A stretch of DNA of 64,000 bases from Eledone cirrhosa (Eukaryota). Below are positions 4,307 through 64,000 of this stretch, piece by piece. The notes under the pieces were generated by a model. The model was not told where the DNA came from. It searched no databases and saw nothing but the letters and a program-made list of their open reading frames with translations. Position 1 is the first letter of the stretch. Every line of letters starts with the position of its first letter. The position numbers and the translations under genes were made by a program. Location of the stretch: contig OZ024744.1 of assembly GCA_964016885.1 (NCBI GenBank), positions 104,098,001 through 104,162,000 of the forward strand. The letters are read 5' to 3'.

Positions 4307-4492
4307 GGGTGGTGAATTGGCAGTATCGGTAGAGGGTTGGACGCCATGCTTTCTAGCATAGTTACCTCCCTTTACAGTCTGAGTTCAAATCCCGCCAAGG
4401 TTAACTTTGCCTTTCATGCTTACGGGGTCGATAAAATAAAGTACCAGTAATGTACTGGGTAATTGCTGGCCTTGTGCCTAAAGTAGAAACAA
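4307..4492 (+). mobile_element. tRNA-derived SINE
   Basis: A-box TGGCAGTATCGG, B-box GAGTTCAAATCC, body TTTGCCTTTCAT...GTCGATAAAATAAAGTACCAG. TSD TTATATTTTCA at 4294-4304 and 4493-4503. Confidence 0.85.
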
Positions 4493-11154: not shown

Positions 11155-11680
11155 TTGTTGGATTAGCAGAATAGGTAGAGCGTCAAACAAAATACTTTGC
11201 AATATTTGTTCTGGCTCTTTACATTCTAAGTTCAATATTTGCCGGGGTCAACTTTGCTCTTCACCCTTTGCAAGGTTTATAAAATAAAGTACTAGTCAAG
11301 CACTGGGGTTGATTGCAGAGGTCTTTTGCAAGCGCTGGCATGTGCCATGGCTGCCACATAAAGGGGGCGCCACCTGGACTAAGAGCATGTTCCATTAACG
11401 TCAAATAAGCCTTGTCAGAGAGTGAAAAAAGAAACTCCTTCAGGTATATAATCTGTCTCTATCATGGGTGAGAACACTATGGTGGCTGGATCATTAAACT
11501 ATTTATATAAATTATTAGACCCCTAGGTAAAAAATACAGTGCTGGGCAGGGGCACAATATCACTGCTTGCCATAGGTGCTATTTTCCCCTAGTTATGCCT
11601 CTGGTTGCTTTATTTAACTTTGAAACCCCCCCCCCCCCCCCAATTGCTAGCCTCGTGCCTAGATTAGAAATAATTATTTA
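11155..11680 (+). mobile_element. Degenerate SINE interrupted by a hAT-like MITE (11316-11603)
   Basis: SINE body AAGTTCAA...AACTTTGCTCTTCA...ATAAAATAAAGTACTAG and tail TTGCTAGCCTCGTGCCTAGATTAGAAA. The insert ends CAGAGG...CCTCTG with a degenerate TSD (GTTGATTG / GTTGCTTT). Confidence 0.5.
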
Positions 11681-12463: not shown

Positions 12464-12652
12464 TAGCTCTGAATCCCATCTGCTTCACTTCCATATTCTA
12501 CATTCTGATATGGGGTAGTTAATTGTAGGTCCTAACACTTTTGAGTCTTTACATTTTCTCTAATTATTCGTTAAGTTTTGAAGCTTCTGCTTAATCCAAA
12601 ATGGCCTAGTAGAAATAGCAGCTAAATCTCTACCAAACTTCTCTTTACCATC

Positions 12653-13179
12653 TTAACCCTTTACCATTTAAACCGGCTGTATCCAGCCAGAATACTCTCA
12701 CCTCTTTCTGTTCAAACCATCTGTAACCAGCCACTTATACCTGCATTAAGGTATTGTTCTAAAATTAAATAACATCAAAATCTCATAGATTCAATATTAT
12801 GTGAGGTAAAGCCTTTACCATGAAAATACAATAGTAAATATAGAGTAATGTAAATGCTAAAGAGTTAAAATTGGATCAACTGGAGCATCACATACCACTG
12901 TTATGGTGGTATGGGGGTGGTTACAAGGTTACAAGTAGTGGCAGGTTGACAGGTACAACTCTTAACCCATTAGTGTTCAAACCAGCCAGAATTCTCTACC
13001 TCTTTCTGTTGAAACCGGCTGTAACTGGTCGCTCAAACTGATGTTAAGGTATTGTTCTCAAAATAAATACTTTCAAAATCTCATAGATTCGATATTATGT
13101 GAGATAATTATGTGAGGTAAAGCCTTTACCATGAAAATATAATAGTATATATAAAATAATGTGAATGCTAAAGGGTTAA
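12653..13179. mobile_element. Two piggyBac-like MITEs in direct orientation (12653-12868, 12962-13179)
   Basis: TTAACCC...AATGCTAAAG(A/G)GTTAA ends; same body as 5095-5308. Confidence 0.75.
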
Positions 13180-13228
13180 ATAACTCTAAAGTGTTTCAAT
13201 AATTTTCTTTTTATCTTTATATTTTCAG

Positions 13229-13334
13229 AAAACCAACCGATATACTTCATGGTCATTCTGCTCCCATTTTCTACGTCTACTATAGTGAAGAAGACAATTG
13301 GATATTTAGTATATCATCAGATAAATGTATTAAA
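13229..13334 (+). CDS. WD40-repeat protein, exon F
   Basis: TTTTCAG acceptor and AAA|GTAAGA donor. Encodes KPTDILHGHSAPIFYVYYSEEDNWIFSISSDKCIK (GH...S.DK.IK WD40 signature). Confidence 0.9.
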
Positions 13335-13443
13335 GTAAGAAAATTATACTTTCCTATGTATTTGTTTTATACATTTTAAAGTAGAAATCCTCCATATTTT
13401 TCTCATTTTTAGTACGAGGTATATATATATATATATATATATA

Positions 13444-16400
13444 GGCAGTGAATTGGCAGAGTGGTTAGAACGTCAGATAGAATGGCAGAGTGGTTAGAAC
13501 GTCAGATAGAATGGTAGACTGGTTAGAACGTCAGATAGAATGGTAGAGTGGTTAGAACGTCAGATAGAATGGCAGAGTGGTTAGAACGTCAGATAGAATG
13601 GTAGAGTGGTTAGAACGTCAGATAGAATGGCAGAGTGGTTAGAACGTCAGATAGAATGGTAGAGTGGTTAGAACGTCAGATAGAATGGCAGAGTGGTTAG
13701 AACATCAGATAGAATGGCAGAGTAGTTAGAACGTCAGATAGAATGGTAGAGTCGTTAGAACATCAGATAGAATGGCAGAGTGGTTAGAACGTCAGATAGA
13801 ATGGCAGAGTCGTTAGAACGTCAGATAGAATGGTAGAGTGGTTAGAACGTCAGATAGAATGGTAGAGTGGTTAGAACGTCAGATAGAATGGTAGAGTCGT
13901 TAGAACGTCAGATAGAATGGTAGAGTCGTTAGAACATCAGATAGAATGGCAGAGTGGTTAGAACGTCAGATAGAATGGTAGAGTGGTTAGAATGTCAGAT
14001 AGAAGGGTAGAGTGGTTAGAACGTCAGATAGAATGGTAGAGTAGTTAGAACATCAGATAGAATGGTAGAGTGGTTAGAACGTCAGACAGAATGGTAGAGT
14101 GGTTAGAACGTCAGATAGAATGGCAGAGTGGTTAGAACGTCAGATAGAATGGCAGAGTGGTTAGAACGTCAGATAGAATGGCAGAGTCGTATAGAATGTC
14201 AGATAGAATGGCAGAGTGGTTAGAACGTCAGATAGAATGGCAGAGTGGTTAGAACGTCAGATAGAATGGCAGAGTCGTATAGAATGTCAGATAGAATGGC
14301 AGAGTGGTTAGAACGTCAGATAGAATGGCAGAGTGGTTAGAACGTCAGATAGAATGGTAGAGTGGTTAGAACGTCAGATAGAATGGTAGACTGGTTAGAA
14401 CGTCAGATAGAATGGTAGAGTGGTTAGAACGTCAGATAGAATGGTAGAGTGGTTAGAACGTCAGATAGAATGGCAGAGTGGTTAGAACGTCAGATAGAAT
14501 GGCAGAGTGGTTAGAACGTCAGATAGAATGGCAGAGTCGTTAGAATGGCAGAGTGGTTAGAACGTCATATAGAATGGTAGAGTCATTAGAACGTCATATA
14601 GAATGGCAGAGTCGTTAGAACGTCATATAGAATGGTAGAGTCATTAGAACGTAAGATAGAATGGTAGAGTGGTTAGAACGTCAGATAGAATGGTAGAGTC
14701 GTTAGAACATCAGATAGAATGGCAGAGTCGTTAGAACGTCAGATAGAATGGTAGAGTGGTTAGAACGTCAGATAGAATGGTAGAGTGGTTAGAACGTCAG
14801 ATAGAATGGTAGAGTGGTTAGAACGTCAGATAGAATGGTAGAGTGGTTAGAACGTCAGATAGAATGGTAGAGTCGTTAGAACATCAGATAGAATGGCAGA
14901 GTCGTTAGAACGTCAGATAGAATGGTAGAGTGGTTAGAACGTCAGATAGAATGGTAGAGTGGTTAGAACGTCAGATAGAATGGTAGAGTGGTTAGAACGT
15001 CAGATAGAATGGTAGAGTGGTTAGAATGTCAGATAGAATGGCAGAGTGGTTAGAATGTCAGATAGAATGGTAGAGTGGTTAGAACGTCAGATAGAATGGT
15101 ACAGTTGTTAGAACGTCAGATAGAATGGCAGCATCACTAGAACGTCAGATAGAATGGTAGAGTGGTTAGAACATCAGATAGAATGGCAGAGTGGTTAGAA
15201 CGTCAGATAGAATGGCAGAGTCGTTAGAACGTCAGATAGAATGGCAGAGTCGTTAGAACGTCAGATAGAATGGCAGAGTGGTTAGAACGTCAGATAGAAT
15301 GGCAGAGTGGTTAGAACGTCAGATAGAATGGTAGAGTGGTTAGAACGTCAGATAGAATGGCAGAGTTGTTAGAACGTCAGATAGAATGGCAGAGTGGTTA
15401 GAACGTCAGATAGAATGGTAGAGTCGTTAGAACATCAGATAGAATGGTAGAGTGGTTAGAACGTCAGACAGAATGGTAGAGTTGTTAGAACGTCAGATAG
15501 AATGGTAGAGTTGTTAGAACGTCAGATAGAATGGTAGAGTGGTTAGAACGTCAGACAGAATGGTAGAGTGGTTAGAACGTCAGATAGAATGGCAGAGTGG
15601 TTAGAACGTCAGACAGAATGGTAGAGTGGTTAGAACGTCAGACAGAATGGTAGAGTGGTTAGAACGTCAGATAGAATGGCAGAGTGGTTAGAACGTCAGA
15701 TAGAATGGTAGAGTGGTTAGAACGTCAGACAGAATGGTAGAGTGGTTAGAACGTCAGATAGAATGGCAGAGTGGTTAGAACGTCAGATAGAATGGTAGAG
15801 TGGTTAGAACGTCAGATAGAATGGCAGAGTGGTTAGAACGTCAGATAGAAGGGTAGAGTAGTTAGAACATCAGATAGAATGGTAGAGTGGTTAGAACGTC
15901 AGACAGAATGGTAGAGTGGTTAGAACGTCAGATAGAATGGCAGAGTGGTTAGAACGTCAGATAGAATGGTAGAGTGGTTAGAACGTCAGATAGAATGGCA
16001 GAGTGGTTAGAACGTCAGATAGAATGGCAGAGTGGTTAGAACGTCAGATAGAATGGCAGAGTCGTTAGAACGTCATATAGAATGGTAGAGTCATTAGAAC
16101 GTAAGATAGAATGGTAGAGTGGTTAGAACGTCAGATAGAATGGTAGAGTGGTTAGAACGTCAGATAGAATGGTAGAGTCGTTAGAACATCAGATAGAATG
16201 GCAGAGTCGTTAGAACGTCATATAGAATGGTAGAGTCATTAGAACGTAAGATAGAATGGTAGAGTGGTTAGAACGTCAGATAGAATGGTAGAGTGGTTAG
16301 AACGTCAGATAGAATGGTAGAGTCGTTAGAACATCAGATAGAATGGCAGAGTCGTTAGAACGTCATATAGAATGGTAGAGTGGTTAGAACGTCAGATAGA

Positions 16401-19400
16401 ATGGTAGAGTGGTTAGAACGTCAGATAGAATGGTAGAGTGGTTAGAACGTCAGATAGAATGGTAGAGTGGTTAGAACATCAGATAGAATGGCAGAGTGGT
16501 TAGAACGTCAGATAGAATGGCAGAGTGGTTAGAACGTCAGATAGAATGGCAGAGTGGTTAGAATGTCAGATAGAATGGCAGAGTGGTTAGAACATCAGAT
16601 AGAATGGCAGAGTGGTTAGAACGTCAGATAGAATGGTAGAGTGGTTAGAACGTCAGATAGAATGGCAGAGTGGTTAGAACGTCAGATAGAATGGTAGAGT
16701 GGTTAGAACGTCAGATAGAATGGTAGAGTGGTTAGAACATCAGATAGAATGGCAGAGTGGTTAGAACGTCAGATAGAATGGTAGAGTGGTTAGAATGTCA
16801 GATAGAATGGCAGAGTGGTTAGAATGTCAGATAGAATGGTAGAGTGATTAGAACGTCAGATAGAATGGCAGAGTGGTTAGAACGTCAGATAGAATGGCAG
16901 AGTGGTTAGAACATCAGATAGAATGGCAGAGTGGTTAGAACGTCAGATAGAATGGCAGAGTGGTTAGAACGTCAGATAGAATGGCAGAGTCGTTAGAACG
17001 TCAGATAGAATGGTAGAGTCGTTAGAACATCAGATAGAATGGCAGAGTGGTTAGAACGTCAGATAGAATGGTAGAGTGGTTAGAATGTCAGATAGAAGGG
17101 TAGAGTGGTTAGAACGTCAGATAGAATGGTAGAGTAGTTAGAACATCAGATAGAATGGTAGAGTGGTTAGAACGTCAGACAGAATGGTAGAGTGGTTAGA
17201 ACGTCAGATAGAATGGCAGAGTGGTTAGAACGTCAGATAGAATGGCAGAGTGGTTAGAACGTCAGATAGAATGGCAGAGTCGTATAGAATGTCAGATAGA
17301 ATGGCAGAGTGGTTAGAACGTCAGATAGAATGGCAGAGTGGTTAGAACGTCAGATAGAATGGCAGAGTCGTATAGAATGTCAGATAGAATGGCAGAGTGG
17401 TTAGAACGTCAGATAGAATGGCAGAGTGGTTAGAACGTCAGATAGAATGGTAGAGTGGTTAGAACGTCAGATAGAATGGTAGACTGGTTAGAACGTCAGA
17501 TAGAATGGTAGAGTGGTTAGAACGTCAGATAGAATGGTAGAGTGGTTAGAACGTCAGATAGAATGGCAGAGTGGTTAGAACGTCAGATAGAATGGCAGAG
17601 TGGTTAGAACGTCAGATAGAATGGCAGAGTCGTTAGAATGGCAGAGTGGTTAGAACGTCATATAGAATGGTAGAGTCATTAGAACGTCATATAGAATGGC
17701 AGAGTCGTTAGAACGTCATATAGAATGGTAGAGTCATTAGAACGTAAGATAGAATGGTAGAGTGGTTAGAACGTCAGATAGAATGGTAGAGTCGTTAGAA
17801 CATCAGATAGAATGGCAGAGTCGTTAGAACGTCAGATAGAATGGTAGAGTGGTTAGAACGTCAGATAGAATGGTAGAGTGGTTAGAACGTCAGATAGAAT
17901 GGTAGAGTGGTTAGAACGTCAGATAGAATGGTAGAGTGGTTAGAACGTCAGATAGAATGGTAGAGTCGTTAGAACATCAGATAGAATGGCAGAGTCGTTA
18001 GAACGTCAGATAGAATGGTAGAGTGGTTAGAACGTCAGATAGAATGGTAGAGTGGTTAGAACGTCAGATAGAATGGTAGAGTGGTTAGAACGTCAGATAG
18101 AATGGTAGAGTGGTTAGAATGTCAGATAGAATGGCAGAGTGGTTAGAATGTCAGATAGAATGGTAGAGTGGTTAGAACGTCAGATAGAATGGTACAGTTG
18201 TTAGAACGTCAGATAGAATGGCAGCATCACTAGAACGTCAGATAGAATGGTAGAGTGGTTAGAACATCAGATAGAATGGCAGAGTGGTTAGAACGTCAGA
18301 TAGAATGGCAGAGTCGTTAGAACGTCAGATAGAATGGCAGAGTCGTTAGAACGTCAGATAGAATGGCAGAGTGGTTAGAACGTCAGATAGAATGGCAGAG
18401 TGGTTAGAACGTCAGATAGAATGGTAGAGTGGTTAGAACGTCAGATAGAATGGCAGAGTTGTTAGAACGTCAGATAGAATGGCAGAGTGGTTAGAACGTC
18501 AGATAGAATGGTAGAGTCGTTAGAACATCAGATAGAATGGTAGAGTGGTTAGAACGTCAGACAGAATGGTAGAGTTGTTAGAACGTCAGATAGAATGGTA
18601 GAGTTGTTAGAACGTCAGATAGAATGGTAGAGTGGTTAGAACGTCAGACAGAATGGTAGAGTGGTTAGAACGTCAGATAGAATGGCAGAGTGGTTAGAAC
18701 GTCAGACAGAATGGTAGAGTGGTTAGAACGTCAGACAGAATGGTAGAGTGGTTAGAACGTCAGATAGAATGGCAGAGTGGTTAGAACGTCAGATAGAATG
18801 GTAGAGTGGTTAGAACGTCAGACAGAATGGTAGAGTGGTTAGAACGTCAGATAGAATGGCAGAGTGGTTAGAACGTCAGATAGAATGGTAGAGTGGTTAG
18901 AACGTCAGATAGAATGGCAGAGTGGTTAGAACGTCAGATAGAAGGGTAGAGTAGTTAGAACATCAGATAGAATGGTAGAGTGGTTAGAACGTCAGACAGA
19001 ATGGTAGAGTGGTTAGAACGTCAGATAGAATGGCAGAGTGGTTAGAACGTCAGATAGAATGGTAGAGTGGTTAGAACGTCAGATAGAATGGCAGAGTGGT
19101 TAGAACGTCAGATAGAATGGCAGAGTGGTTAGAACGTCAGATAGAATGGCAGAGTCGTTAGAACGTCATATAGAATGGTAGAGTCATTAGAACGTAAGAT
19201 AGAATGGTAGAGTGGTTAGAACGTCAGATAGAATGGTAGAGTGGTTAGAACGTCAGATAGAATGGTAGAGTCGTTAGAACATCAGATAGAATGGCAGAGT
19301 CGTTAGAACGTCATATAGAATGGTAGAGTCATTAGAACGTAAGATAGAATGGTAGAGTGGTTAGAACGTCAGATAGAATGGTAGAGTGGTTAGAACGTCA

Positions 19401-20252
19401 GATAGAATGGTAGAGTCGTTAGAACATCAGATAGAATGGCAGAGTCGTTAGAACGTCATATAGAATGGTAGAGTGGTTAGAACGTCAGATAGAATGGTAG
19501 AGTGGTTAGAACGTCAGATAGAATGGTAGAGTGGTTAGAACGTCAGATAGAATGGTAGAGTGGTTAGAACATCAGATAGAATGGCAGAGTGGTTAGAACG
19601 TCAGATAGAATGGCAGAGTGGTTAGAACGTCAGATAGAATGGCAGAGTGGTTAGAATGTCAGATAGAATGGCAGAGTGGTTAGAACATCAGATAGAATGG
19701 CAGAGTGGTTAGAACGTCAGATAGAATGGTAGAGTGGTTAGAACGTCAGATAGAATGGCAGAGTGGTTAGAACGTCAGATAGAATGGTAGAGTGGTTAGA
19801 ACGTCAGATAGAATGGTAGAGTGGTTAGAACATCAGATAGAATGGCAGAGTGGTTAGAACGTCAGATAGAATGGTAGAGTGGTTAGAATGTCAGATAGAA
19901 TGGCAGAGTGGTTAGAATGTCAGATAGAATGGTAGAGTGATTAGAACGTCAGATAGAATGGCAGAGTGGTTAGAACGTCAGATAGAATGGCAGAGTGGTT
20001 AGAACATCAGATAGAATGGCAGAGTGGTTAGAACGTCAGATAGAATGGCAGAGTGGTTAGAACGTCAGATAGAATGGCAGAGTCGTTAGAACGTCAGATA
20101 GAATAGTAGAGTGGTTAGAACGTCAGATAGAATGCTTTATGGTATTCATGCCGGGTCTCTGCTCTCTGAGTTCAAATCCCGTCATGGTCAACTCTGCCTT
20201 TCCTCCTTTCGAGGTCGATAAAAAAAGTACCAGACAAGTACTGGGGTCAATT
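13444..20252 (+). mobile_element. tRNA-derived SINE split by an internal 29-bp satellite expansion
   Basis: Head GGCAGTGAATTGGCAGAGTGG at 13444. After the array come GCTTTATGGTATT..., B-box GAGTTCAAATCC (20168-20179) and AACTCTGCCTTTCCTCCTTTCGAGGTCGATAAAAAAAGTACCAG, as in the SINE at 4307. Confidence 0.85.
13454..20133 (+). repeat. 29-bp satellite, ~230 copies (TGGYAGAGTGGTTAGAACGTCAGATAGAA)
   Basis: Direct tandem periodicity, with an internal 3093-bp duplication. Confidence 0.97.
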
Positions 20253-20857
20253 CTTCCTCTCTCTGGAAGAAATATGCTGTACTCAGGGCTCCGACAGGGT
20301 TAAAATGTCCAAGAAACGCTGTATGTCAATACGGTGTACCTACGACTCTATCATGAGTTACGGGATATAAAATATATAAATTTTGTATATAATCTACTTA
20401 CTTATTAAGTACTGTATATGTCTGTATATATTTTATTGATGCCAGCCCAGGCTTCAGTGCTTGCCAAGCTGAAGAGTACAAACTGTCAAAGTATTGGCCG
20501 CCCCTTGGTAAGTTTTGCGGTTGAGCCTGCAACAGTGGAGACATTTTCGACACTCTTGACCCCCAAAGATCACATCCCTACTAATTTCTATCAGGGCGGA
20601 GTTGGTTGCCCGCATGTGTAAGCCCCACAAGGTGGAGTGGTTGTTCCAATGCATCTCTCTTGCTATCTTCTGTGGCAATGTTTTCTTCACCCTATCGGAC
20701 ATGACCATGAGGCGGACTGACACTGGAACATTAAATGGTAGACACAGATCATATACACACACACACGCACACATATAACATGCACTCACATCTACAGCGA
20801 TCTCCTCTTTTTTTTTTGCTATTTTTTCTTCTCACCTTGTAAGCAGTCAACTATTTT

Positions 20858-25269: not shown

Positions 25270-25459
25270 ATAATAGTTTCTGATATAGGCACAAGGCCAG
25301 CAATTAAATCGACCCCAGTGCATGACTGGTACTTTATTTAATCAACCATATAAAGATGAAAGGCAAAGCTAACCTCAGTGTGATTTGAACTCAGAATGTA
25401 AAGGGACATAACTCTATGCCTCAAAGTATGTTATCCAACACTCTACCAATACTGCCAAT
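25270..25459 (-). mobile_element. tRNA-derived SINE (same family as 4307)
   Basis: Plus strand reads GGCACAAGGCCAGCAATT...CTGGTACTTTATTT...GATGAAAGGCAAAG...GATTTGAACTCAG...ATACTGCCAA. Confidence 0.8.
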
Positions 25460-25907: not shown

Positions 25908-26089
25908 AAGAAATTGGTTGTGTAATAGCCTGGAGAGAGATGTGTTCTGCCAGGATGTCAAAGATATGGGCTGCAATTCCCAACAGCACCCCAATAATAC
26001 CATCAGAAGTTAAGTGCCCCTGCCCTGGCATAGCAAACATTTTCTGGGGTGTTTCTTTGTTAGATTGAAATTAATTCTTCCAATTGACA

Positions 26090-26371
26090 TCGATACACCT
26101 TAGATTTGTATCAATACACCCTAGATTTGTATCAATACCCCCTAGATTTTTTATCAATATACCCTAGATTTATATCAATACACCATAGATTTATATCAAT
26201 ATACCTTAGATTTATATCAATACACCTTAGATTTGTATCGATACATCCTAGATTTGTATCAATACCCACTAGATTTATATCAATATACCCTAGATTTATA
26301 TCAATATACCCTAGATTTATATCAATATACTTCAGATTTATATCAATATACCTTAGATTTATATAAATATA
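26090..26371. repeat. 21-bp satellite, left remnant (~13 degenerate copies)
   Basis: CCCTAGATTT(A/G)TATCAATATA units. Confidence 0.9.
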
Positions 26372-50527: not shown

Positions 50528-50685
50528 GTGTGGAATGCTACAGACTATAGTTGTATTAATACTGTGAGACCGAAATCTCACCTGATCCACGGAGATCTGA
50601 GCACCGTATATTACTCGAATATTTCGAAGACGTTTGCCTTTACAACAAATGTTCTGGCCACTCTCAGCATGAAGATTAAGTCAAA
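50528..50685 (+). CDS. WD40-repeat protein, exon G
   Basis: TTTGCAG acceptor. VWNATDYSC... completes DKCIK|VWN across a 37-kb intron. Donor is AA|GTATAT; an in-phase alternative after 50679 is possible. Confidence 0.85.
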
Positions 50686-51532: not shown

Positions 51533-53237
51533 TACTTTCAGAAACATTCTTTCCTGCTCAGAGTTCCTGAATCATGGAACAAACTACCTGCATCAGTTGT
51601 TAGCTGTCGAGACACTGCATCCTTTAAAACCTCCATGGAACAAACTACCTGCATCAGTTGTTAGCTGTCGAGACACTGCATCCTTTAAAACCTCCATGGA
51701 ACAAACTACGTGCATCAGTTGTTAGCTGTCGAGACACTGCATCCTTTAAAACCTCCATGGAACAAACTACCTGCATCAGTTGTTAGCTGTCGAGACACTG
51801 CATCCTTTAAAGTCTCCATGAAACAAACTACCTGCATCAGTTGTTAGCTGTCGAGACACTGCATCCTTTAAGGCCTCCATGGAACAAACTACCTGCATCA
51901 GTTGTTAGCTGTCGAGACATTGCATCCTTTAAAACCTCCATGGAACAAACTACCTGCATCAGTTGTTAGCTGTCGAGACACTGCATCCTTTAAAACCTCC
52001 ATGGAACAAACTACCTGCATCAGTTGTTAGCTGTCGAGACACTGCATCCTTTAAAACCTCCATGGAACAAACTACCTGCATCAGTTGTTAGCTGTCGAGA
52101 CACTGCATCCTTTAAAACCTCCATGGAACAAACTACCTGCATCAGTTGTTAGCTGTCGAGACACTGCATCCTTTAAAACCTCCATGGAACAAACTACGTG
52201 CATCAGTTGTTAGCTGTCGAGACACTGCATCCTTTAAAACCTCCATGGAACAAACTACCTGCATCAGTTGTTAGCTGTCGAGACACTGCATCCTTTAAAA
52301 CCTCCATGAAACAAACTACCTGCATCAGTTGTTAGCTGTCGAGACACTGCATCCTTTAAAACCTCCATGGAACAAACTACCTGCATCAGTTGTTAGCTGT
52401 CGAGACACTGCATCCTTTAAAACCTCCATGGAACAAACTACGTGCATCAGTTGTTAGCTGTCGAGACACTGCATCCTTTAAAACCTCCATGGAACAAACT
52501 ACCTGCATCAGTTGTTAGCTGTCGAGACACTGCATCCTTTAAAGTCTCCATGAAACAAACTACCTGCATCAGTTGTTAGCTGTCGAGACACTGCATCCTT
52601 TAAGGCCTCCATGGAACAAACTACCTGCATCAGTTGTTAGCTGTCGAGACATTGCATCCTTTAAAACCTCCATGGAACAAACTACGTGCATCAGTTGTTA
52701 GCTGTCGAGACACTGCATCCTTTAAAACCTCCATGGAACAAACTACCTGCATCAGTTGTTAGCTGTCGAGACACTGCATCCTTTAAAACCTCCATGGAAC
52801 AAACTACGTGCATCAGTTGTTAGCTGTCGAGACACTGCATCCTTTAAAACCTCCATGGAACAAACTACCTGCATCAGTTGTTAGCTGTCGAGACACTGCA
52901 TCCTTTAAAGTCTCCATGAAACAAACTACCTGCATCAGTTGTTAGCTGTCGAGACACTGCATCCTTTAAAACCTCCATGGAACAAACTACCTGCATCAGT
53001 TGTTAGCTGTCGAGACACTGCTTCCTGTAAAGCCTCCATGCTTCCTGAGATTTACCAACACTACACTTGATAACCCCTCTCCTCCCCTCCATACATAAAC
53101 ATGAACACATGTATATCATGACTCATACACTGTTCACTTTCCTTGCATTTGTACATTATTCTATGTACGATACATGCACATTTGATGAATTGTAGTGCAC
53201 CTGAGCACTACTCAATAATTTCATTATTATTATTATA
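51533..53237 (+). mobile_element. CR1-type LINE 3' fragment containing a 61-bp tandem expansion
   Basis: Flanks CTTTCAGAAACATTCTTTCCTGCTCAGAGTT and CATGCTTCCTGAGATTTACCAACACTACACTTGA...GTAGTGCAC...(ATT)n align with the reverse complement of 26375-26655. Confidence 0.85.
51574..53040 (+). repeat. 61-bp minisatellite, ~24 copies
   Basis: ATGGAACAAACTACCTGCATCAGTTGTTAGCTGTCGAGACACTGCATCCTTTAAAACCTCC at 51574, 51635 and onward. Confidence 0.97.
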
Positions 53238-53240
53238 TAT

Positions 53241-53438
53241 GCGGTGGATCGGCAGTATCGGTAAAGGGTCGGACGCTATGCTATGCTTTTCAGCAAAAAG
53301 TTACGGCCCTTTATGGTCTGAGTTCAAATCCCGCCGAGGTGAACTTTGCCTTTCATCCTTACGGGGTCGATAAAATAAAGTACCATTAATGCACTGGGAT
53401 AATAGCTGGCCTTGTGCTAAAAGTAGAAACAAGTATTA
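53241..53438 (+). mobile_element. tRNA-derived SINE
   Basis: CGGCAGTATCGG, GAGTTCAAATCCCGCCGAGG, GTCGATAAAATAAAGTACC, GGCCTTGTGC...GTAGAAAC. Confidence 0.85.
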
Positions 53439-53699: not shown

Positions 53700-53883
53700 T
53701 TAATAATTGTTTCTACATTAGGCACAAGGCCAGCAATTACCCAGTGCATTACTGGTACTTTATTTTATCGACCTCGTAAGGATGAAAGGCAAAGTTAACC
53801 TCGGCGGGATTTGAACTCAGACTGTAAAGGGACGTAACTATGCTAGAAAGCATGGCATCCAACCCTCTACCGATACTGCCAAT
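53700..53883 (-). mobile_element. tRNA-derived SINE, inverted relative to 53241-53438
   Basis: The reverse complement is nearly identical to 4317-4492. Confidence 0.85.
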
Positions 53884-54147: not shown

Positions 54148-57100
54148 ATATGGTTTATAACAGAGATGTATAGGAAGGGATAGCTGACAGAATTTGGTTT
54201 ATAACAGTTGAAGGTAGACTATCTAGAGATATATAGGCAGGGATAGCTCACAGAATATGGTTTATAACAGCTGAAGGTAGACTATCTAGAGGTATATAGG
54301 ATGGGATAGCTCACAGAATGTAGTTTATAACAGTTGAAGGTAGACTGTCTAGAGATGTATAGGAAGGGATAGCTCACAGAATATGGTTTATAACAGTTGA
54401 AGGTAGACTGTCTAGAGATATATAGGAAGGGATAGCTCACAGAATGTGGTTTATAACAGTTGAAGGTAGACTGTCTAGAGATGTATAGGAAGGGATAGCT
54501 CACAGAATATGGTTTATAACAGTTGAAGGTAGACTGTCTACAGATATATAGGAAGGAATAGCTTACAGAATATGGGTTATAACAGTTGAAGGTAGACTGT
54601 TTAGAGATGTATAGGAAGAGATAGCTCACAGAATATGGTTTATAACAGTTGAAGGTAGACTGTCTAGAGGTATATAGGAAGGGATAGCTCACAGAATTTG
54701 GTTTATAACAGTTGAAGGTAGACTATCTAGAGATGTATAGGAAGGGATAGCTCACAGAATATGGTTTATAACAGTTGAAGGTAGACTGTCTAGAGGTATA
54801 TAGGAAGGGATAGCTTAGAGAATATGGCTTATAACAGTTGAAGGTAGACTGTCTAGAGGTGTTAGGAAGGGATAGCTTACAGAATATGGTTTATAACAGT
54901 TCGAGGTAGACTCTGTCTAGAGCTGTACAGGAAGGGATAGCTCACAGAATATGGTTTATAACAGTTGAAGGTAGACTGTCTAGAGATATTTAGGAAGGGA
55001 TAGCTCACAGAATATGGTTTATAACAGTTGAAGGTAGACGCTGTCTAGAGATGTAGAGCAAGGGATAGCTTACAGAATATGGTTTATAACAGTTGAAGGT
55101 AGACTGTCTAGAGATATATAGGAAGGGATAGCTTACAGAATATGGTTCATAACTGTTGAAGGTAGACTGTCTAGAGATGTATAGGAAGGGATAGCTCACA
55201 GAATATGGTTTATAACAGATGAGGTAGACTGTCTAGAGATATATAGGATGGGATAGCTCACAGAATATGGTTTATAACAGTTGAAGGTAGACTGTCTAGA
55301 GATGTATATGAAGGGATAGCTCACAGAATATGGTTTATAACAGTTGAATGTAGATTGTCTATAGATATATAGGCAGGGATAGCTGACAGAATATGGTTTA
55401 TAACAGTTGAAGGTAGACTCTGTCTAGAGATATATAGGAAGGGATAGCTCACAGAATATGGTTTATAACAGTTGAAAGTAGACTGTCTAGAGATATATAG
55501 GAAGGGATAGCTGACAGAATATGGTTTATAACAGTTGAAGGTAAACTGTCTAGGGATATATAGGAAGGGATAGCTCACAGAATATGGTTTATAACAGTTG
55601 AAGGTAGACTGTCCAAAGGTATATAGGATGGGATAGCTCACAGAATATGGTTTATAACAGTTGAAGGTAGACTGTCTAGAGATGTATAGGAAGGGATAGC
55701 TCACAGAATATGGTTTATAACAGTTGAAGGTAGACTGTCTAGTGGTATATAGGAAGGGATAGCTCACAGATTATGGTTTATAACAGTTGAAGGTAGACTG
55801 TCTAGAGGTATATAGGAAGGGATAGCTCAGAGAATATGGCTTATAACAGTTGAAGGTAGACTGTCTAGAGGTGTTAGGAAGGGATAGCTGACAGAATACG
55901 GTTTATAACAGTTGAAAGTAGACTCTGTCTAGAGATATATAGGAAGGGATAGCTTACAGAATATGGTTTGTAACAGTTGAAGGTAGACTGTCTAGAGGTG
56001 TTAGGAAGGGATAGCTGACAGAATATGGTTTATAACAGTTGAAGGTAGACTTTGTCTAGAGATATATAGGAAGGGATAGCTTACAGAATATGGTTTATAA
56101 CAGTTGAAGGTAGACTGTCTAGAGGTATATAGGAAGGGATAGCTCACAGAATATGGTTTATAACAGTTGAAGCTAGACTGTCTAGAGATATTTAGGAAGG
56201 GATAGCTCACAGAATATGGTTTATAACAGTTGAGGATAGACTGTCTAGAGATATATAGGAAGGGATAGCTCACAGAATATGGTTTATAACGGTTGAAGGT
56301 AGACTGTCTAGAGTTATATAGGAAGGGATAGCTGATAGAATATGGTTTATAACAGTTGAAGATAGACTGTCTAGAGATATATAGGAAGGGATAGCTCACA
56401 GAATATGGTTTATAACAGTTGAAGGTAGACTCTCTCTAGAGATGTAGAGCAAGGGATAGCTTACAGAATATGGTTTATAACAGTTGAAGGTAGACTGTCT
56501 AGAGGTATATAGGAAGGGATAGCTCACAGAATATGGTTTATAACAGTTGAAGGTAGACTCTCTCTAGAGATGTAGAGCAAGGGATAGCTTACAGAATATG
56601 GTTTATAACAGTTGAATGTAGATTGTCTATAGATATATAGGAAGGGATAGCTGACAGAATATGGTTCATAACAGTTGAAGGTAGACTCTGTCTAGAGATA
56701 TATAGGAAGGGATAGCTCACAGAATATGGTTTATAACAGTTGAAAGTAGACTGTCTAGAGATATATAGGAAGGGATAGCTGACAGAATATGGTTTATTAC
56801 AGTTGAAGGTAGACTGTCTAGGGATATATAGGAAGGGATAGCTCCCAGAATATGGTTTATAACAGTTGAAGGTAGACTGTCTAGAGATGTATAGGAAGGG
56901 ATAGCTGATAGAATATGGTTTATAACAGTTGAAGGTAGACTGTCTAGAGGTATATAGGAAGGGATAGCTCACAGAATATGGTTTATAACAGTTGAAGGTA
57001 GACTGTCTAGAGATGTATGGGAAGGGATAGCTTACAGAATATGGTTTATAACAGTTGAAGGTAGAATCTGTCTAGAGATATATAAGAAGGGACATCTCAC

Positions 57101-60100
57101 AGAATATGGTTCATAACAGTTGAAGGTAGACGGTCTAGAGGTGTATAGGAAGGGATAGCTTACAGAATATGGTTTATAACATTTGAAGGTAGAATGTCTA
57201 GATATGTATAGGATGGGATAGCTTACAGAATATGGTTTATAACAGTTGAAGGTAGAATGTCTAGAGATGTATAGGAAGGGCTAGCTGACAGAATATGGTT
57301 TATAACAGTTGAAGGTAGACTGTCTAGAGGTATATAGGGTGGGATAGCTCACAGAATATGGTATATAACAGTTGAACGTAGAATGTCTAGAGATATATAG
57401 GAAGGGATAGCTGACAGAATATGGTTTATCACAGTTGAAGGTAGACTGTCTAGGGATATATAGGAAGGGATAGCTCCCAGAATATGGTTTATAACAGTTG
57501 AAGGTAGACTGTCTAGAGATGTATAGGAAGGGATAGCTGATAGAATATGGTTTATAACAGTTGAAGGTAGACTGTCTAGAGGTATATAGGAAGGGATAGC
57601 TCACAGAATATGGTTTATAACAGTTGAAGGTAGACTGTCTAGAGATGTATGGGAAGGGATAGCTTACAGAATATGGTTTATAACAGTTGAAGGTAGAATC
57701 TGTCTAGAGATATATAAGAAGGGACATCTCACAGAATATGGTTCATAACAGTTGAAGGTAGACGGTCTAGAGGTGTATAGGAAGGGATAGCTTACAGAAT
57801 ATGGTTTATAACATTTGAAGGTAGAATGTCTAGATATGTATAGGATGGGATAGCTTACAGAATATGGTTTATAACAGTTGAAGGTAGAATGTCTAGAGAT
57901 GTATAGGAAGGGCTAGCTGACAGAATATGGTTTATAACAGTTGAAGGTAGACTGTCTAGAGGTATATAGGGTGGGATAGCTCACAGAATATGGTATATAA
58001 CAGTTGAACGTAGAATGTCTAGAGACATATAGGATGGGATAGCTTACAGAATAAGGTTTATAACAGTTGAAGGTAGACTGTCTAGAGATGTATGGGAAGG
58101 GATAGCTTACAGAATATGGTTTATAACAGTTGAAGGTAGAATCTGTCTAGAGATATATAAGAAGGGACATCTCACAGAATATGGTTCATAACAGTTGAAG
58201 GTAGACGGTCTAGAGGTGTATAGGAAGGGATAGCTTACAGAATATGGTTTATAACATTTGAAGGTAGAATGTCTAGATATGTATAGGATGGGATAGCTTA
58301 CAGAATATGGTTTATAACAGTTGAAGGTAGAATGTCTAGAGATGTATAGGAAGGGCTAGCTGACAGAATATGGTTTATAACAGTTGAAAGTAGACTGTCT
58401 AGAGATATATAGGAAGGGATAGCTGACAGGATATGGTTTATAACAGTTGAAGGTAGAATGTCTAGAGATATATAGGAAGGGATAGCTTACAGAATAAGGT
58501 TTATAACAGTTGAAGGTAGACTGTCTAGTGATGTATAGGAAGGGATAGCTCACAGAATATGGTTCATAACAGTTGAAGGTAGACTGTCTAGAGGTGGAGG
58601 GGAAGGGATAACTTACATAATATGGTTTATAACAGTTGAAAGTAGACTGTCTAGAGGTATATAGGAAGGGATAGCTCACAGAATATGGTTTATAACAGTT
58701 GAAGGTAAACTGTCTAGAGGTGTAGGGGAAGGGATAACTTACATAATATGGTTTATAACAGTTGAAGGTAGACTGTCTAGAGATGTATAGGAAGGGATAG
58801 CTTACAGAATATGGTTTATAACAGTTGAAAGTAGACTGTCTAGAGATATATAGGAAGGGATAGCTGACAGGATATGGTTTATAACAGTTGAAGGTAGAAT
58901 GTCTAGTGGTATATAGGAAGGGATAGCTCACAGAATGTGGTTTATAACAGATGAAGGTAGACTGTCTAGAGATATATAGGAAGGGATAGCTGACAGAATA
59001 TGGTTTATAACAGTTGAAGGTAGACTGTCTAGAGATATATAGGAAGGGATAGCTCACAGAATATGGTTTATAACAGTTGAAGGTAGACTGTCTAGAGATA
59101 TGAAGGAAGGGATAGCTCACAGAATATGTTTTATAACAGTTGAAGGTAGACTCTGTCTAGAGGTATATAGGAAGGAATAGCTTACAGAATATGGTTTATA
59201 ACAGTTGAAGGTAGACTGTCTAAAGATATATAGGAAGGGATAGCTGACAGAATATGGTTTATAACAGTTGAAGGTAGACTGTCTAGAGATATATAGGAAG
59301 GGATAGCTCACAGAATGTGGTTTATAACAGTTGAAGGTAGACTGTCTAGAGATGTATAGGTAGGGATAGCTCACAGAATATGGTTTATAACAGTTGAAGG
59401 TAGACTGTCTACAGATATATAGGAAGGGATAGCTTACAGAATATGGGTTATAACAGTTGAAGGTAGACTGTCTAGAGGTGTTAGGAAGGGATAGCTTACA
59501 GAATATGGTTTATAACAGTTCAAGGTAGACTCTGTCTAGAGCTGTACAGGAAGGGATAGCTCACAGAATATGGTTTATAACAGTTGAAGGTAGACTGTCT
59601 AGAGATATTAAGGAAGGGATAGCTCACAGAATATGGTTTATAACAGTTGAAGGTAGACTCTGTCTAGAGATGTAGAGCAAGGGATAGCTTACAGAATATG
59701 GTTTATAACAGTTGAAGGTAGACTGTCTAGAGATATATAGGAAGTGATAGCTTACAGAATATGGTTCATAGCTGTTGAAGGTAGACTGTCTAGAGATGTA
59801 TAGGAAGGGATAGCTCACAGAATATGGTTTATAACAGTTGAGGTAGACTGTCTAGAGATATATAGGATGGGATAGCTCACAGAATATGGTTTATAACAGT
59901 TGAAGGTAGACTGTCTAGAGATGTATATGAAGGGATAGCTCACAGAATATGGTTTATAACAGTTGAATGTAGATTGTCTATAGATATATAGGCAGGGATA
60001 GCTCACAGAATATGGTTTATAACAGTTGAAGGTAGACTCTGTCTAGAGATATATAGGAAGGGATAGCTCACAGAATATGGTTTATAACAGTTGAAAGTAG

Positions 60101-63100
60101 ACTGTCTAGAGATATATAGGAAGGGATAGCTGACAGAATATGGTTTATAACAGTTGAAGGTAAACTGTCTAGAGGTATATAGGATGGGATAGCTCACAGA
60201 ATATGGTTTATAACAGTTGAAGGTAGACTCTGTCTAGAGATATATAGGAAGGGATAGCTCACATAATATGGTTTATAACAGTTGAAGGTAGACTGTAGTT
60301 GTATATAGGAAGGGATAGATTACAGAATATGGTTATTAACAGTTGAAGGTAGACTGTCTAGAGGTATATAGGATGGGATAGCTCACATAATATGGTTTAT
60401 AACAGTTGAAGGTAGACTCTGTCTTGAGGTATATAGGAAGGGATAGCTTACAGTATATGGTTTATAACAGTTCAAAGTAGACTGTCTAGAGATATATAGG
60501 AAGGGATAGCTGACAGAATATGGTTTATAACAGTTGAAGGTAGACTCTCTCTAGAGCTGTACAGGAAGGCATAGCTGACAGAATATGGTTTATAACAGTT
60601 GAAGGTAGACTGTCTAGTGATGTATAGGAAGGGATAGCTCACAGAATATGGTTCATAACAGTTGAAGGTAGACTGTCTAGAGGTGTAGGGGAAGGGATAA
60701 CTTACATAATATGGTTTATAACAGTTGAAAGTAGACTGTCTAGAGGTATATAGGAAGGGATAGCTCACAGAATATGGTTTATAACAGTTGAAGGTAGACT
60801 GTCTAGAGGTGTAGGGGAAGGGATAACTTACATAATATGGTTTATAACAGTTGAAGGTAGACTGTCTAGAGATGTATAGGAAGGGATTGCTTACAGAATA
60901 TGGTTTATAACAGTTGAAAGTAGACTGTCTAGAGATATATAGGAAGGGATAGCTGACAGGATATGGTTTATAACAGTTGAAGGTAGAATGTCTAGAGATC
61001 TATAGGAAGGGATAGCTGACAGAATATGGTTTATAACAGTTGAAGGTAGACCGTCCAGAGATGTATGGGAAGGGATAACTTACAGAATATGGTTTATAAC
61101 AGTTGAAGGCAGACTATCTATAGGTGTATAGGAAGAGATAGCTCACAGAATATGGTTTATAACAGTTGAAGGTAGACTGTCTAGAGATGTATAGGAAGGG
61201 CTAGCTCACATAATATGGTTGATAACAGTTGAAGGTAGACTGTCTAGTGGTATATAGGAAGGGATAGATTACAGAATATGGTTATTAACAGTTGAAGGTA
61301 GACTGTCTAGAAGTATATAGGATCGGATAGCTCACATAATATGTTTTATAACAGTTGAAGGTAGACTCTGTCTTGAGGTATATAGGAAGGGATAGCTGAC
61401 AGAATATGGTTTATAACAGTTGAAAGTAGACTGTCTAGAGATATATAGGAAGGGATAGCTGACAGAATATGGTTTATAACAGTTGAAGGTAGACTGTCGA
61501 GAGATATATAGGAAGAGATAGCTCACAGAATATGGTTTATAACAGTTGAAGGTAGACTGTCTAGAGATGTATAGGAAGGGCTAGCTCACATAATATGGTT
61601 GATAACAGTTGAAGGTAGACTGTCTAGTGGTATATAGGAAGGGATAGATTACAGAATATGGTTATTAACAGTTGAAGGTAGACTGTCTAGAAGTATATAG
61701 GATCGGATAGCTCACATAATATGTTTTATAACAGTTGAAGGTAGACTCTGTCTAGAGGTATATAGGAAGGGATAGATTACAGAATATGGTTTATAACAGT
61801 TGAAGGTAGACTCTCTCTAGAGCTGTACAGGAAGGGATAGCTGACAGAATATGGTTTATAACAGTTGAAGGTAGACTGTCTAGTGGTATATAGGAAGGGA
61901 GAGCTCCCAGAATATAGTTTATAAGAGTTGAAGGTAGACTGTCTACAGGTATATAGGAAGCGATAGCTCACAGAATATGGTTTATAACAGTTGAAGGTAG
62001 ACTGTCTAGAGATATATAGGAAGGGATAGCTGACAGGATATGGTTTATAACAGTTGAAGGTAGAATGTCTAGAGATATATAGGAAGGGATAGCTTACAGA
62101 ATAAGGTTTATAACAGTTGAAGTTAGACTGTCTAGAGATATATAGGAAGGGATAGCTCACAGAATATGTTTTATAACAGTTGAAGGTAGACTCTCCAGAG
62201 ATGTATGGGAAGGGATAACTTACATAATATGGTTTATAACAGTTGAAGGCAGACTATCTATAGGTGTATATGAAGGGATAGCTCACAGAATATGGTTTAT
62301 AACAGTTGAAGGTAGACTGTCTAGAGATGTATAGGAAGGGCTAGCTCACATAATATGGTTTATAACAGTTGAAGGTAGACTGTCTAGAGATGTATAGGAA
62401 GGGCTAGCTCACATAATATGGTTGATAACAGTTGAAGGCAGACTATCTATAGGTGTATATGAAGGGATAGCTCACAGAATATGGTTTATAACAGTTGAAG
62501 GTAGACTATCTATAGGTGTATAGGAAGAGATAGCTCACAGAATATGGTTTATAACAGTTGAAGGTAGACTGTCTAGAGATGTATAGGAAGGGAGAGCTCC
62601 CAGAATATAGTTTATAAGAGTTGAAGGTAGACTGTCTAGAGGTATATAGGAAGCGATAGCTCACAGAATATGGTTTATAACAGTTGAAGGTAGACTGTTT
62701 AGAGATATATAGGAAGGGATAGCTGACAGGATATGTTTTATAACAGTTGAAGGTAGAATGTCTAGAGATATATAGGAAGGGATAGCTTACAGAATAAGGT
62801 TTATAACAGTTGAAGTTAGACTGTCTAGAGATCTATAGGAAGGGATAGCTCACAGAATATGTTTTATAACAGTTGAAGGTAGACTCTCCAGACATGTATG
62901 GGAAGGGATAACTTACATAATATGGTTTATAACAGTTGAAGGCAGACTATCTATAGGTGTATATGAAGGGATAGCTCACAGAATATGGTTTATAGCAGTT
63001 GAAGGTAGACTGTCTAGAGATGTATAGGAAGGGCTAGCTCACATAATATGGTTTATAACAGTTGAAGGTAGACTGTAGTGGTATATAGGAAGGGATAGAT

Positions 63101-64000
63101 TACAGAATATGGTTATTAACAGTTGAAGGTAGACTGTCTAGAGGTATATAGGATGGGATAGCTCACATAATATGGTTCATAACAGTTGAAGGTAGACTCT
63201 GTCTTGAGGTATATAGGAAGGGATAGCTTACAGAATATGGTTTATAACAGTTGAAAGTAGACTGTCTAGAGATATATAGGAAGGGATAGCTGACAGAATA
63301 TGGTTTATAACAGTTGAAGGTAGACTGTCGAGAGATATATAGGAAGGGATAGCTGACAGAATTTGGTTTATAACAGTTGAAGGTAGACTGCCTAGAGATG
63401 TATAGGAAGGGCTAGCTCACATAATATGGTTTATAACAGTTGAAGGTAGACTGTCTAGTGGTATATAGGAAGGGATAGATTACAGAATATGGTTATTAAC
63501 AGTTGAAGGTAGACCGTCTAGAGGTATATAGGATAGGATAGCTCACAGAATATGGTTTATAACAGTTGAAGGTAGACTGTCTAGAGATATATAGGAAGGG
63601 ATAGCTCACATAATATGGTTTATAACAGTTGAAGGTAGACTCTGTCTTGAGGTATATAGGAAGGGGTAGCTGACAGAATATGGTTTATAACAGTTGAAGG
63701 TAGACTCTGTCTAGAGATGTATAGGAAGGGATAGTTTACAGAATATGGTTTATAACAGTTGAAGGTAGACTGTCTAGAGATATATAGGAAGGGATAGCTG
63801 ACAGGATATGGTTTATAACAGTTGAAGGTAGAATGTCTATAGATATATAGGAAGGGATAGCTTACAGAATAAGCTTTATAACAGTTGAATTTAGACTGTC
63901 TAGAGATCTATAGGAAGGGATAGCTGACAGGATATGGTTTATAACAGTTGAAGGTAGAATGTCTAGAGATATATAGGAAGGGATAGCTTACAGAATAAGC
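54148..64000. repeat. 63-bp satellite (65-bp variants), >150 copies, runs off the window
   Basis: GATAGCTCACAGAATATGGTTTATAACAGTTGAAGGTAGACTGTCTAGAGATATATAGGAAGG tandem units. Confidence 0.97.

What the first reader, a model, noticed from the sequence alone, without database searches (positions are those of the whole stretch)
13444..20252. A 6.7-kb satellite of ~230 Pol III A-boxes grown inside a single SINE, ahead of one B-box
Seen: the SINE head runs straight into the array, and the rest of the SINE (B-box GAGTTCAAATCC at 20168, body, tail) resumes after the last unit. Most 29-bp units contain TGG(C/T)AGAGTGG. Established: this matches the type-2 Pol III A-box consensus TRGYNNARYGG. The unit is bounded by GAAT(T)GG / GAATGC microhomology, suggesting a slippage origin. 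Inference: a satellite caught at birth from a tRNA-derived promoter. It could offer staggered Pol III starts near the B-box or act as a TFIIIC-related chromatin element. The + strand consensus unit has no T4 terminator.
Basis: partly seen in the sequence, partly recalled or inferred. Interest (0 to 1): 0.75.

Follow-up and report, generated by a model that had tools for sequence, protein, structure and literature searches.

The report
Satellite spreading between SINE promoter heads
A 29-base piece of a small jumping gene's promoter is repeated 231 times between that element's two ends, inside a likely intron; more than 110 other copies in this genome carry the same kind of repeat, which likely passes from copy to copy during DNA repair and likely has no function.

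Summary
The anatomy is real. There are 231 units (161 with TGGYAGAGTGG) between a SINE head and its B-box and body, and the flanks join into one element 90% identical to its family. The interpretation mostly fails. The array is not unique or newborn: I read 118 such arrays, roughly 240 are estimated, 93 of 101 keep both SINE ends, and some exceed 45 kb. The stated microhomology predicts 30-bp units, yet 29/27-bp junctions outnumber them 13,960 to 24. The 'perfect' A-box is a derived allele. One three-change unit dominates 42 of 98 arrays, across unrelated SINE bodies, but is absent from single copies. Rare variants are shared between neighbouring arrays. The best reading is a SINE-derived minisatellite, seeded by copying between loci and enlarged locally; a 3,093-bp block is doubled without a mismatch. 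No promoter selection is seen, and only the last A-box lies within TFIIIC reach. The kind is known from reptiles (PMC10702118), and this scan noted sibling SINE-head arrays elsewhere in this genome before.

The parts
13229..13334 (+). Exon of a WD40-repeat gene just upstream (host gene; intron starts GT at 13335)
   Evidence: AG/GT borders seen; Pfam WD40 E=7e-4, below the curated cut-off; WD40 proteins in PDB; three substitutions listed for organism B, two of them also for organism C, are all at third codon positions (frame read by hand)
13420..13443 (.). (TA)12 run at the insertion site; target-site duplication not resolvable
13444..13479 (+). SINE head and first (30-bp) unit, with the head-specific TT
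   Evidence: aligns to family 5' end
13450..20129 (+). Tandem array, 231 units of SINE positions ~12-40 (A-box segment)
13893..17011 (+). First copy of the exact 3,119-bp match (107-unit block doubling)
16986..20104 (+). Second copy of the exact match, offset 3,093
20104..20114 (+). Last A-box, the only one 54-66 bp from the B-box
   Evidence: range from PMC11811891
20168..20179 (+). Single B-box (core GWTCRANNC at 20170-20178)
20130..20365 (+). SINE body and 3' end (lacks the 40-bp CT-rich segment and 15 bp of the family)
   Evidence: family 3' end at 20365 also marked by loose contig ends
20381..20384 (+). First T4, a possible Pol III terminator for a transcript from the last unit
50528..50680 (+). 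Likely next exon of the WD40 gene (begins VWN after a pyrimidine tract and CAG); places the array in a ~37-kb intron; end approximate
   Evidence: only such candidate in the window; no PDB match on its own; splicing inferred

Best explanation
This is one member of a genome-wide family of minisatellites that sit inside copies of one tRNA-type SINE, likely seeded by copying from another array during DNA repair, likely enlarged in place by unequal exchange, and likely without function. Step 1 (shown): an ordinary SINE copy, now about 8-10% from its family, lies here, probably in a WD40-gene intron. Step 2 (inferred): a break in or near its head was repaired on another array as template (ectopic conversion, SDSA type); this brought in the standard 29-bp junction and the derived unit, and left the recipient's own head and body. 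Step 3 (pattern shown, mechanism inferred): nested block duplications grew it to about 124 units, and a very recent doubling of 107 units took it to 231. Step 4 (inferred): Pol III could still use the last A-box with the B-box, as in any SINE copy; the other 230 are passengers.
For: Same junction everywhere: 13,960 vs 24 matches; the dominant unit is 29 bp in 106 of 118 arrays, 27 bp in 9, 30 bp in 2, 42 bp in 1. The derived unit T14-G20-A32 is the majority in 42 of 98 arrays and has 2,924 exact copies. It has 0 matches as a single-unit SINE; the three alleles occur in 9, 6 and 20 of 100 listed single copies (counted by eye). It occurs equally on both body variants (15 A46, 14 G46, 1 other; other arrays 26/22/1; singles 24/14/2). 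Bodies of arrays form no group: no diagnostic column beyond chance, 81% pairwise identity vs 80% among singles, 31 label changes vs 29.4 shuffled. The first unit often keeps the family base: C14 in 20 of 36 T-G-A arrays, and in 6 of 10 arrays of 2-4 units with non-T14 heads the second unit already has T14. Rare unit types are shared by neighbours: 6 of 107 pairs within 5 Mb vs 1.4 expected, p=0.004; 27-bp units in 6 of 6 C21 arrays vs 14 of 107 elsewhere. Arrays sit near ends: 18 of 21 vs 10 of 80 singles on C1-C2. The window is 69% tandem DNA, and its 21-bp array shows a similar exact 2.9-kb block repeat.
Against: No event was observed; one haploid assembly cannot order events. Loci were found by exact patterns, which inflates similarity between arrays at fixed positions (95%); only positions 14, 20 and 32 were left free. 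The body tree is a star (6 of 91 inner branches supported), so it cannot exclude a subfamily. The C-then-T pattern of short arrays also fits a dimeric master. T14 and G20 both match the bases 8 nt upstream in the array and 29 nt downstream in the body (read from the consensus), so templated recurrent mutation is possible. The C21 test and the 45-Mb cut-off were chosen after seeing the data.
Confidence: 0.55

Rival explanations
1. Each array arose independently by local slippage at a hotspot, and the shared alleles are recurrent mutations templated by the unit's internal 8-nt near-repeat.
For: The head is internally repetitive; 17-, 21-, 27-, 30-, 37- and 42-bp units occur; two arrays have their own 30/28-bp junction; both non-CpG-type changes copy the segment 8 nt upstream.
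Against: The best microhomology gives 30 bp but is rare. The third change that this templating predicts (G18A) is at 1% and reaches 20% in 0 of 85 arrays, while C14T does in 67 and C20G in 62, and the CpG transition C20T in only 19. It does not explain sharing between neighbours.
Confidence: 0.2
2. A master SINE with an already duplicated head retrotransposed, and its copies later expanded where recombination is high.
For: Explains one junction and first-unit C14 with second-unit T14; the tree is too weak to exclude it.
Against: Only 4 of 103 closed arrays are dimers. Singles fill chromosome interiors (70 of 80) but arrays do not (3 of 21). Both body variants carry arrays in about the same ratio as singles.
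Confidence: 0.15
3. The array is a functional Pol III/TFIIIC element (staggered starts, boundary or fork-pause site), and the perfect A-box is selected or drives expansion.
For: The allele that perfects the A-box is 45% in arrays vs 6 of 100 singles; its share rises weakly with array length (rho 0.29, p=0.005, 93 arrays); this copy keeps a B-box core and has no internal T4.
Against: The A-box is the low-affinity element found from a B-box anchor 30-67 bp away (PMC11811891 passages). B core is intact in 55 of 106 arrays vs 21 of 40 singles; the last unit is perfect in 35 of 93 vs 34.9 expected; there is no link between perfect A-boxes and an intact B-box (18 of 35 vs 30 of 58). Several long arrays have 27-bp units that break the A-box, or no perfect box at all. 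Only 3 of 101 closed arrays lack a recognisable head, plus one open array that starts directly with a unit (L233), so retrocopies from inner starts are at most rare.
Confidence: 0.07
4. The array is real, but its last doubling (3,093 bp) is an assembly error, so the true array is about 124 units (3.6 kb). This is compatible with the best explanation and concerns size only.
For: Zero mismatches in 3,119 bp; no read could be laid across it (skipped the repeat).
Against: Exact kilobase blocks occur in other arrays too (L107 1,289 bp, L125 1,205 bp, the window's 21-mer array 2,898 bp), as recent unequal exchange would give; assemblers more often collapse than invent exact repeats (own knowledge).
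Confidence: 0.2

Closest known systems
SINE-derived satellites (sSat1-3) of squamate reptiles, Vassetzky, Kosushkin and Ryskov 2023, PMC10702118 (read parts 1-4 of 5 of the text; figures and supplements not seen)
   Same: Tandem repeat of part of a tRNA-related SINE at many loci; a few to hundreds of units; one dominant unit; units more alike between loci than the SINEs are; subtelomeric bias.
   Different: Units there are about 70-290 nt, here 29. The snake unit holds box B, this one only box A. Loci with both SINE termini are called uncommon there, but are 93 of 101 here. Invertebrate host. The paper invokes unequal recombination and concerted evolution and, in the parts read, does not test seeding between loci.
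Alu- and B1-derived minisatellites of human and mouse (seen only as passages, table rows and references in the review PMC9659126; the primary papers were not read)
   Same: Short units expanded inside SINE copies at many dispersed loci; 2,663 Alu-associated minisatellites are quoted.
   Different: Those derive from 7SL-type SINEs and various regions; here about one in six strict-head copies of one family carries the same unit.
Pol III-transcribed tRNA-like tandem repeats of amphibians (OAX/satellite I, PolIII/TAN, Rana/polIII, Hy/polIII; as described in PMC10702118, part 1)
   Same: Tandem DNA built from tRNA-like promoter sequence.
   Different: Their 200-360+ nt units can hold a whole promoter; this unit has no B-box and cannot act alone.
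Type-2 Pol III promoter (tRNA genes; PMC11811891, passages read)
   Same: The last A-box and the B-box have consensus sequence and workable spacing.
   Different: 230 further A-boxes lie beyond the 30-67 bp range; no cloverleaf was detected.

Membership tests
SINE-derived satellite (sSat, PMC10702118) | Unit derives from part of a dispersed SINE | tested here: met
   Unit equals positions ~12-40 of a 29-copy consensus; 312 single-unit copies match the head pattern
SINE-derived satellite (sSat, PMC10702118) | At least four middle monomers with terminal SINE sequence attached | tested here: met
   231 units, both ends present
SINE-derived satellite (sSat, PMC10702118) | Many loci with a dominant homogeneous unit | tested here: met
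   118 arrays read, 106 with 29-bp period; exact-pattern ascertainment inflates homogeneity
SINE-derived satellite (sSat, PMC10702118) | Subtelomeric bias | tested here: met
   18 of 21 arrays vs 10 of 80 singles within 45 Mb of an end on C1-C2; this array is 32 Mb from the end of a 136.5-Mb contig
SINE-derived satellite (sSat, PMC10702118) | Unit length in the reported 70-290 nt range (descriptive, not part of their definition) | tested here: not met
   29 bp
tRNA-derived SINE | A and B boxes in the head | tested here: met
   the family A-box has one mismatch to TRGYNNARYGG
tRNA-derived SINE | Dispersed non-coding copies with common 5' end, body and simple-repeat tail | tested here: met
   1,897 candidates, 40 scored, on many contigs; common ends and CATA-type tail
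tRNA-derived SINE | Head traceable to a named tRNA | tested here: inconclusive
   ARAGORN and Rfam found no tRNA match
tRNA-derived SINE | Target-site duplication and partner LINE | not tested
   Insertion lies in a TA run; no LINE tail search was made
MetaSINE superfamily (PMC4824008) | 66-bp Meta domain in the body | tested here: inconclusive
   Resemblance is recalled only; the domain is printed in figures not held; two supplement files gave no hit and one could not be searched
Functional TFIIIC/Pol III element | A-box within 30-67 bp of a B-box | tested here: met
   For 1 of 231 units only
Functional TFIIIC/Pol III element | Promoter boxes kept better than in neutral copies | tested here: not met
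Functional TFIIIC/Pol III element | Occupancy or transcripts | not testable with these tools
   No ChIP data available; no RNA run was listed to lay

The most novel reading that the evidence does not exclude
A contagious minisatellite with a promoter-linked drive. It converts about one in six copies of a SINE family into arrays by ectopic repair. The unit that wins is the one that restores a canonical Pol III A-box, because TFIIIC or Pol III engagement at the array end promotes the breaks or fork pauses that spread and lengthen it.
Probability: 0.12. Interest if true: 0.75.

Novelty: new variant of a known kind. Interest (0 to 1): 0.36.

Why it matters
As a single locus it matters little: it is one of a few hundred siblings in a window that is two-thirds tandem DNA. 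As a family it is a clean natural experiment. Every array keeps its own SINE head and body as an internal record of the pre-expansion state, so the open question of how a satellite spreads to new sites (independent birth, retrotransposition or conversion) can be tested with long reads from a few individuals. It also extends SINE-derived satellites, whose authors were unsure whether they occur outside squamates, to an invertebrate.

Tried and rejected
tRNA gene or known RNA family: none. Unexpanded allele in relatives: unresolved. Contigs of organisms B and C cover the upstream exon region, but the tool skipped 13411-13520 as repeat; on the 3' side no listed contig piece bridged the SINE end into its flank, though the SINE family itself is present in organism B. 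No RNA holder listed. Retrocopies begun at inner A-boxes: looked for among 40 loci anchored on the 3' end; at most 1-3 candidates. Expanded subfamily: two columns at p 0.01-0.02, uncorrected over about 500 tests, so rejected. Naming the SINE family: no hit in supplements or full text. One search was in the wrong frame and is not used. Papers on cephalopod SINE-derived satellites: searches listed none by title or abstract start; subscription journals are not covered. One search gave nothing useful and no nearby notes.

Full report
Observation. The array runs from 13450 to 20129 and has 231 units: 224 of 29 bp, 5 of 30 and 2 of 17. Of these, 161 carry TGG(C/T)AGAGTGG. The B-box is at 20168, and the + strand has no T4 until 20381. 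With the array collapsed to one unit, head and body align without a break to 29 other copies from the genome, at 90.3% over 277 columns. That consensus comes from the best hits to this copy's own body, so it leans towards it. Smaller nested duplications are visible in the unit string.

It is a family. A 24-base pattern across the unit junction has 13,960 genome matches. Head plus junction gave 95 matches at 82 places; all 82 were read, and 76 were arrays and 6 single units. The same head followed by the normal body gave 312 matches. About 60-65 of the 95 are true heads (my tally), so about one in six strict-head copies is expanded; homogenisation may inflate this. A 3'-anchored pattern gave 107 matches, 100 listed, at 59 places. 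Thirteen were ends of arrays already seen; 40 were fetched, giving 39 arrays and 1 single; 6 were left, three inside known large arrays and three unread. The overlap gives roughly 240 arrays (hand estimate, a lower bound). Among 103 arrays read to both ends, the median is 21 units and this one is the longest, but stretches were capped at 10 kb. Match positions imply arrays of about 48 and 54 kb on C1. Of 101 closed arrays, 93 keep both head and body. Arrays lie near contig ends: 18 of 21 against 10 of 80 singles on C1-C2 (cut-off chosen afterwards, rank test p=9e-8).

Origin. The exact GAAT match between head and body gives a 30-bp unit; that junction occurs 24 times at 3 places. Three positions were left free in the patterns. 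In the 100 listed singles T14, G20 and A32 occur 9, 6 and 20 times (by eye); averaged over 113 arrays they are 62%, 45% and 74%. The triple is the majority unit in 42 of 98 arrays, has 2,924 exact copies and has no match as a single-unit SINE. C20G (62 of 85 arrays) beats the CpG transition C20T (19 of 85). The triple sits on both body variants in about the ratio seen in singles. Bodies of 57 arrays and 37 singles are not separated by columns, identity or tree, although the tree is nearly a star. The 40 singles were hand-picked from the C1-C3 list and include all six G20 copies; 3 singles and 13 closed arrays with short body alignments were dropped. First units tend to keep the family base, and even 2-4-unit arrays often show T14 in the second unit only. 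After dropping one probable duplicate and four loci with shared flanks (113 left), rare unit types were shared within 5 Mb in 6 of 107 pairs against 1.4 expected (p=0.004), and 27-bp units occur in all 6 C21 arrays (post hoc). Copying between loci explains all of this at once. Against it, T14 and G20 also equal the bases 8 nt upstream in the array and 29 nt downstream in the body, and a dimeric master would give the same first/second-unit pattern. I give conversion 0.55, local slippage 0.2 and a dimeric master 0.15.

Function. In human TFIIIC the B-box is the high-affinity anchor and the A-box is found at low affinity 30-67 bp away (PMC11811891, passages). Here only the last A-box (20104-20114) is in that range; the next is 29 bp further out. 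B cores are intact in 55 of 106 arrays and 21 of 40 singles. The last unit is perfect in 35 of 93 arrays, against 34.9 expected from inner units. The one result in favour is a weak rise of perfect A-boxes with length (rho 0.29), which spread of a successful haplotype also predicts. Occupancy and transcription could not be tested.

Setting. A 106-bp exon at 13229-13334 encodes part of a WD40 repeat and differs in relatives at third positions. The only plausible next exon starts at 50528, so the array probably lies in a 37-kb intron, in sense. That window is 69% tandem DNA. The genome is 3.0 Gb; an earlier scan note calls it an octopus, which I did not test.

Known systems. PMC10702118 (parts 1-4 of 5) describes SINE-derived satellites in squamates with the same general traits; differences are the short A-box-only unit, the retention of both termini and the invertebrate host. 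Alu- and B1-derived minisatellites are cited in PMC9659126 (passages). Searches listed no paper on this family; figures and supplements of PMC10702118 and PMC4824008 that I could not see may bear on the SINE's name. The scan had already noted SINE-head arrays of 27, 42, about 52 and 70 bp in this genome, with similar readings; these are unchecked AI notes, and my reading was recorded before that look-up.

Verdict. Real, correctly located and SINE-derived, but neither unique nor newborn, and probably inert. New variant of a known kind; interest 0.36.

Noticed in passing
window 29402-50448, 51573-53040, 54162-64000, 26089-26369: Further large arrays (21 bp x ~1,000; 61 bp x 24; 63 bp x >155). 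The 21-bp unit also forms a separate 13-copy array 3 kb upstream, and the big one holds exact repeats of 2,898 and 2,674 bp. The 21-kb array ends about 80 bp before the likely exon at 50528.
   Followed up: partly
window 4308-4459, 11162-11314, 25307-25459, 53317-53398, 53740-53883: Five related SINE copies, 74-89% like the family over its first ~150 bp; the one at 4308 directly follows a 36-bp array.
   Followed up: no
L063, L221 (C1 214-215 Mb), L148 (C4 207.5 Mb), L079/L080 (C3 321 Mb): The few interior arrays on the four 380-440 Mb contigs mostly come in close pairs; they might mark former chromosome ends or local spread (untested).
   Followed up: no
L103 (C11 41.69 Mb); L146 (C1 428.1 Mb): Arrays from the same head with other junctions: a 42-bp unit, and a 30/28-bp mix. 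These show that independent births also happen.
   Followed up: partly
L069 and L070 (C2 35.29 and 35.42 Mb): Two arrays 125 kb apart with different flanks share a distinctive body variant next to the array, as a conversion tract or local copying would give.
   Followed up: partly
L224 and L225 (C1 441.64 and 441.99 Mb): 99% identical 5' flanks but 17 vs 29 units: a segmental duplicate (or haplotype copy) showing fast change in unit number.
   Followed up: partly
window 12650-13190: Two adjacent copies, about 300 bp apart, of a very abundant repeat just before the WD40 exon.
   Followed up: no
window 13400-13421: A pyrimidine tract, TAG, six bases and GT just before the TA run look like a cryptic 6-nt microexon; probably chance.
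   Followed up: no
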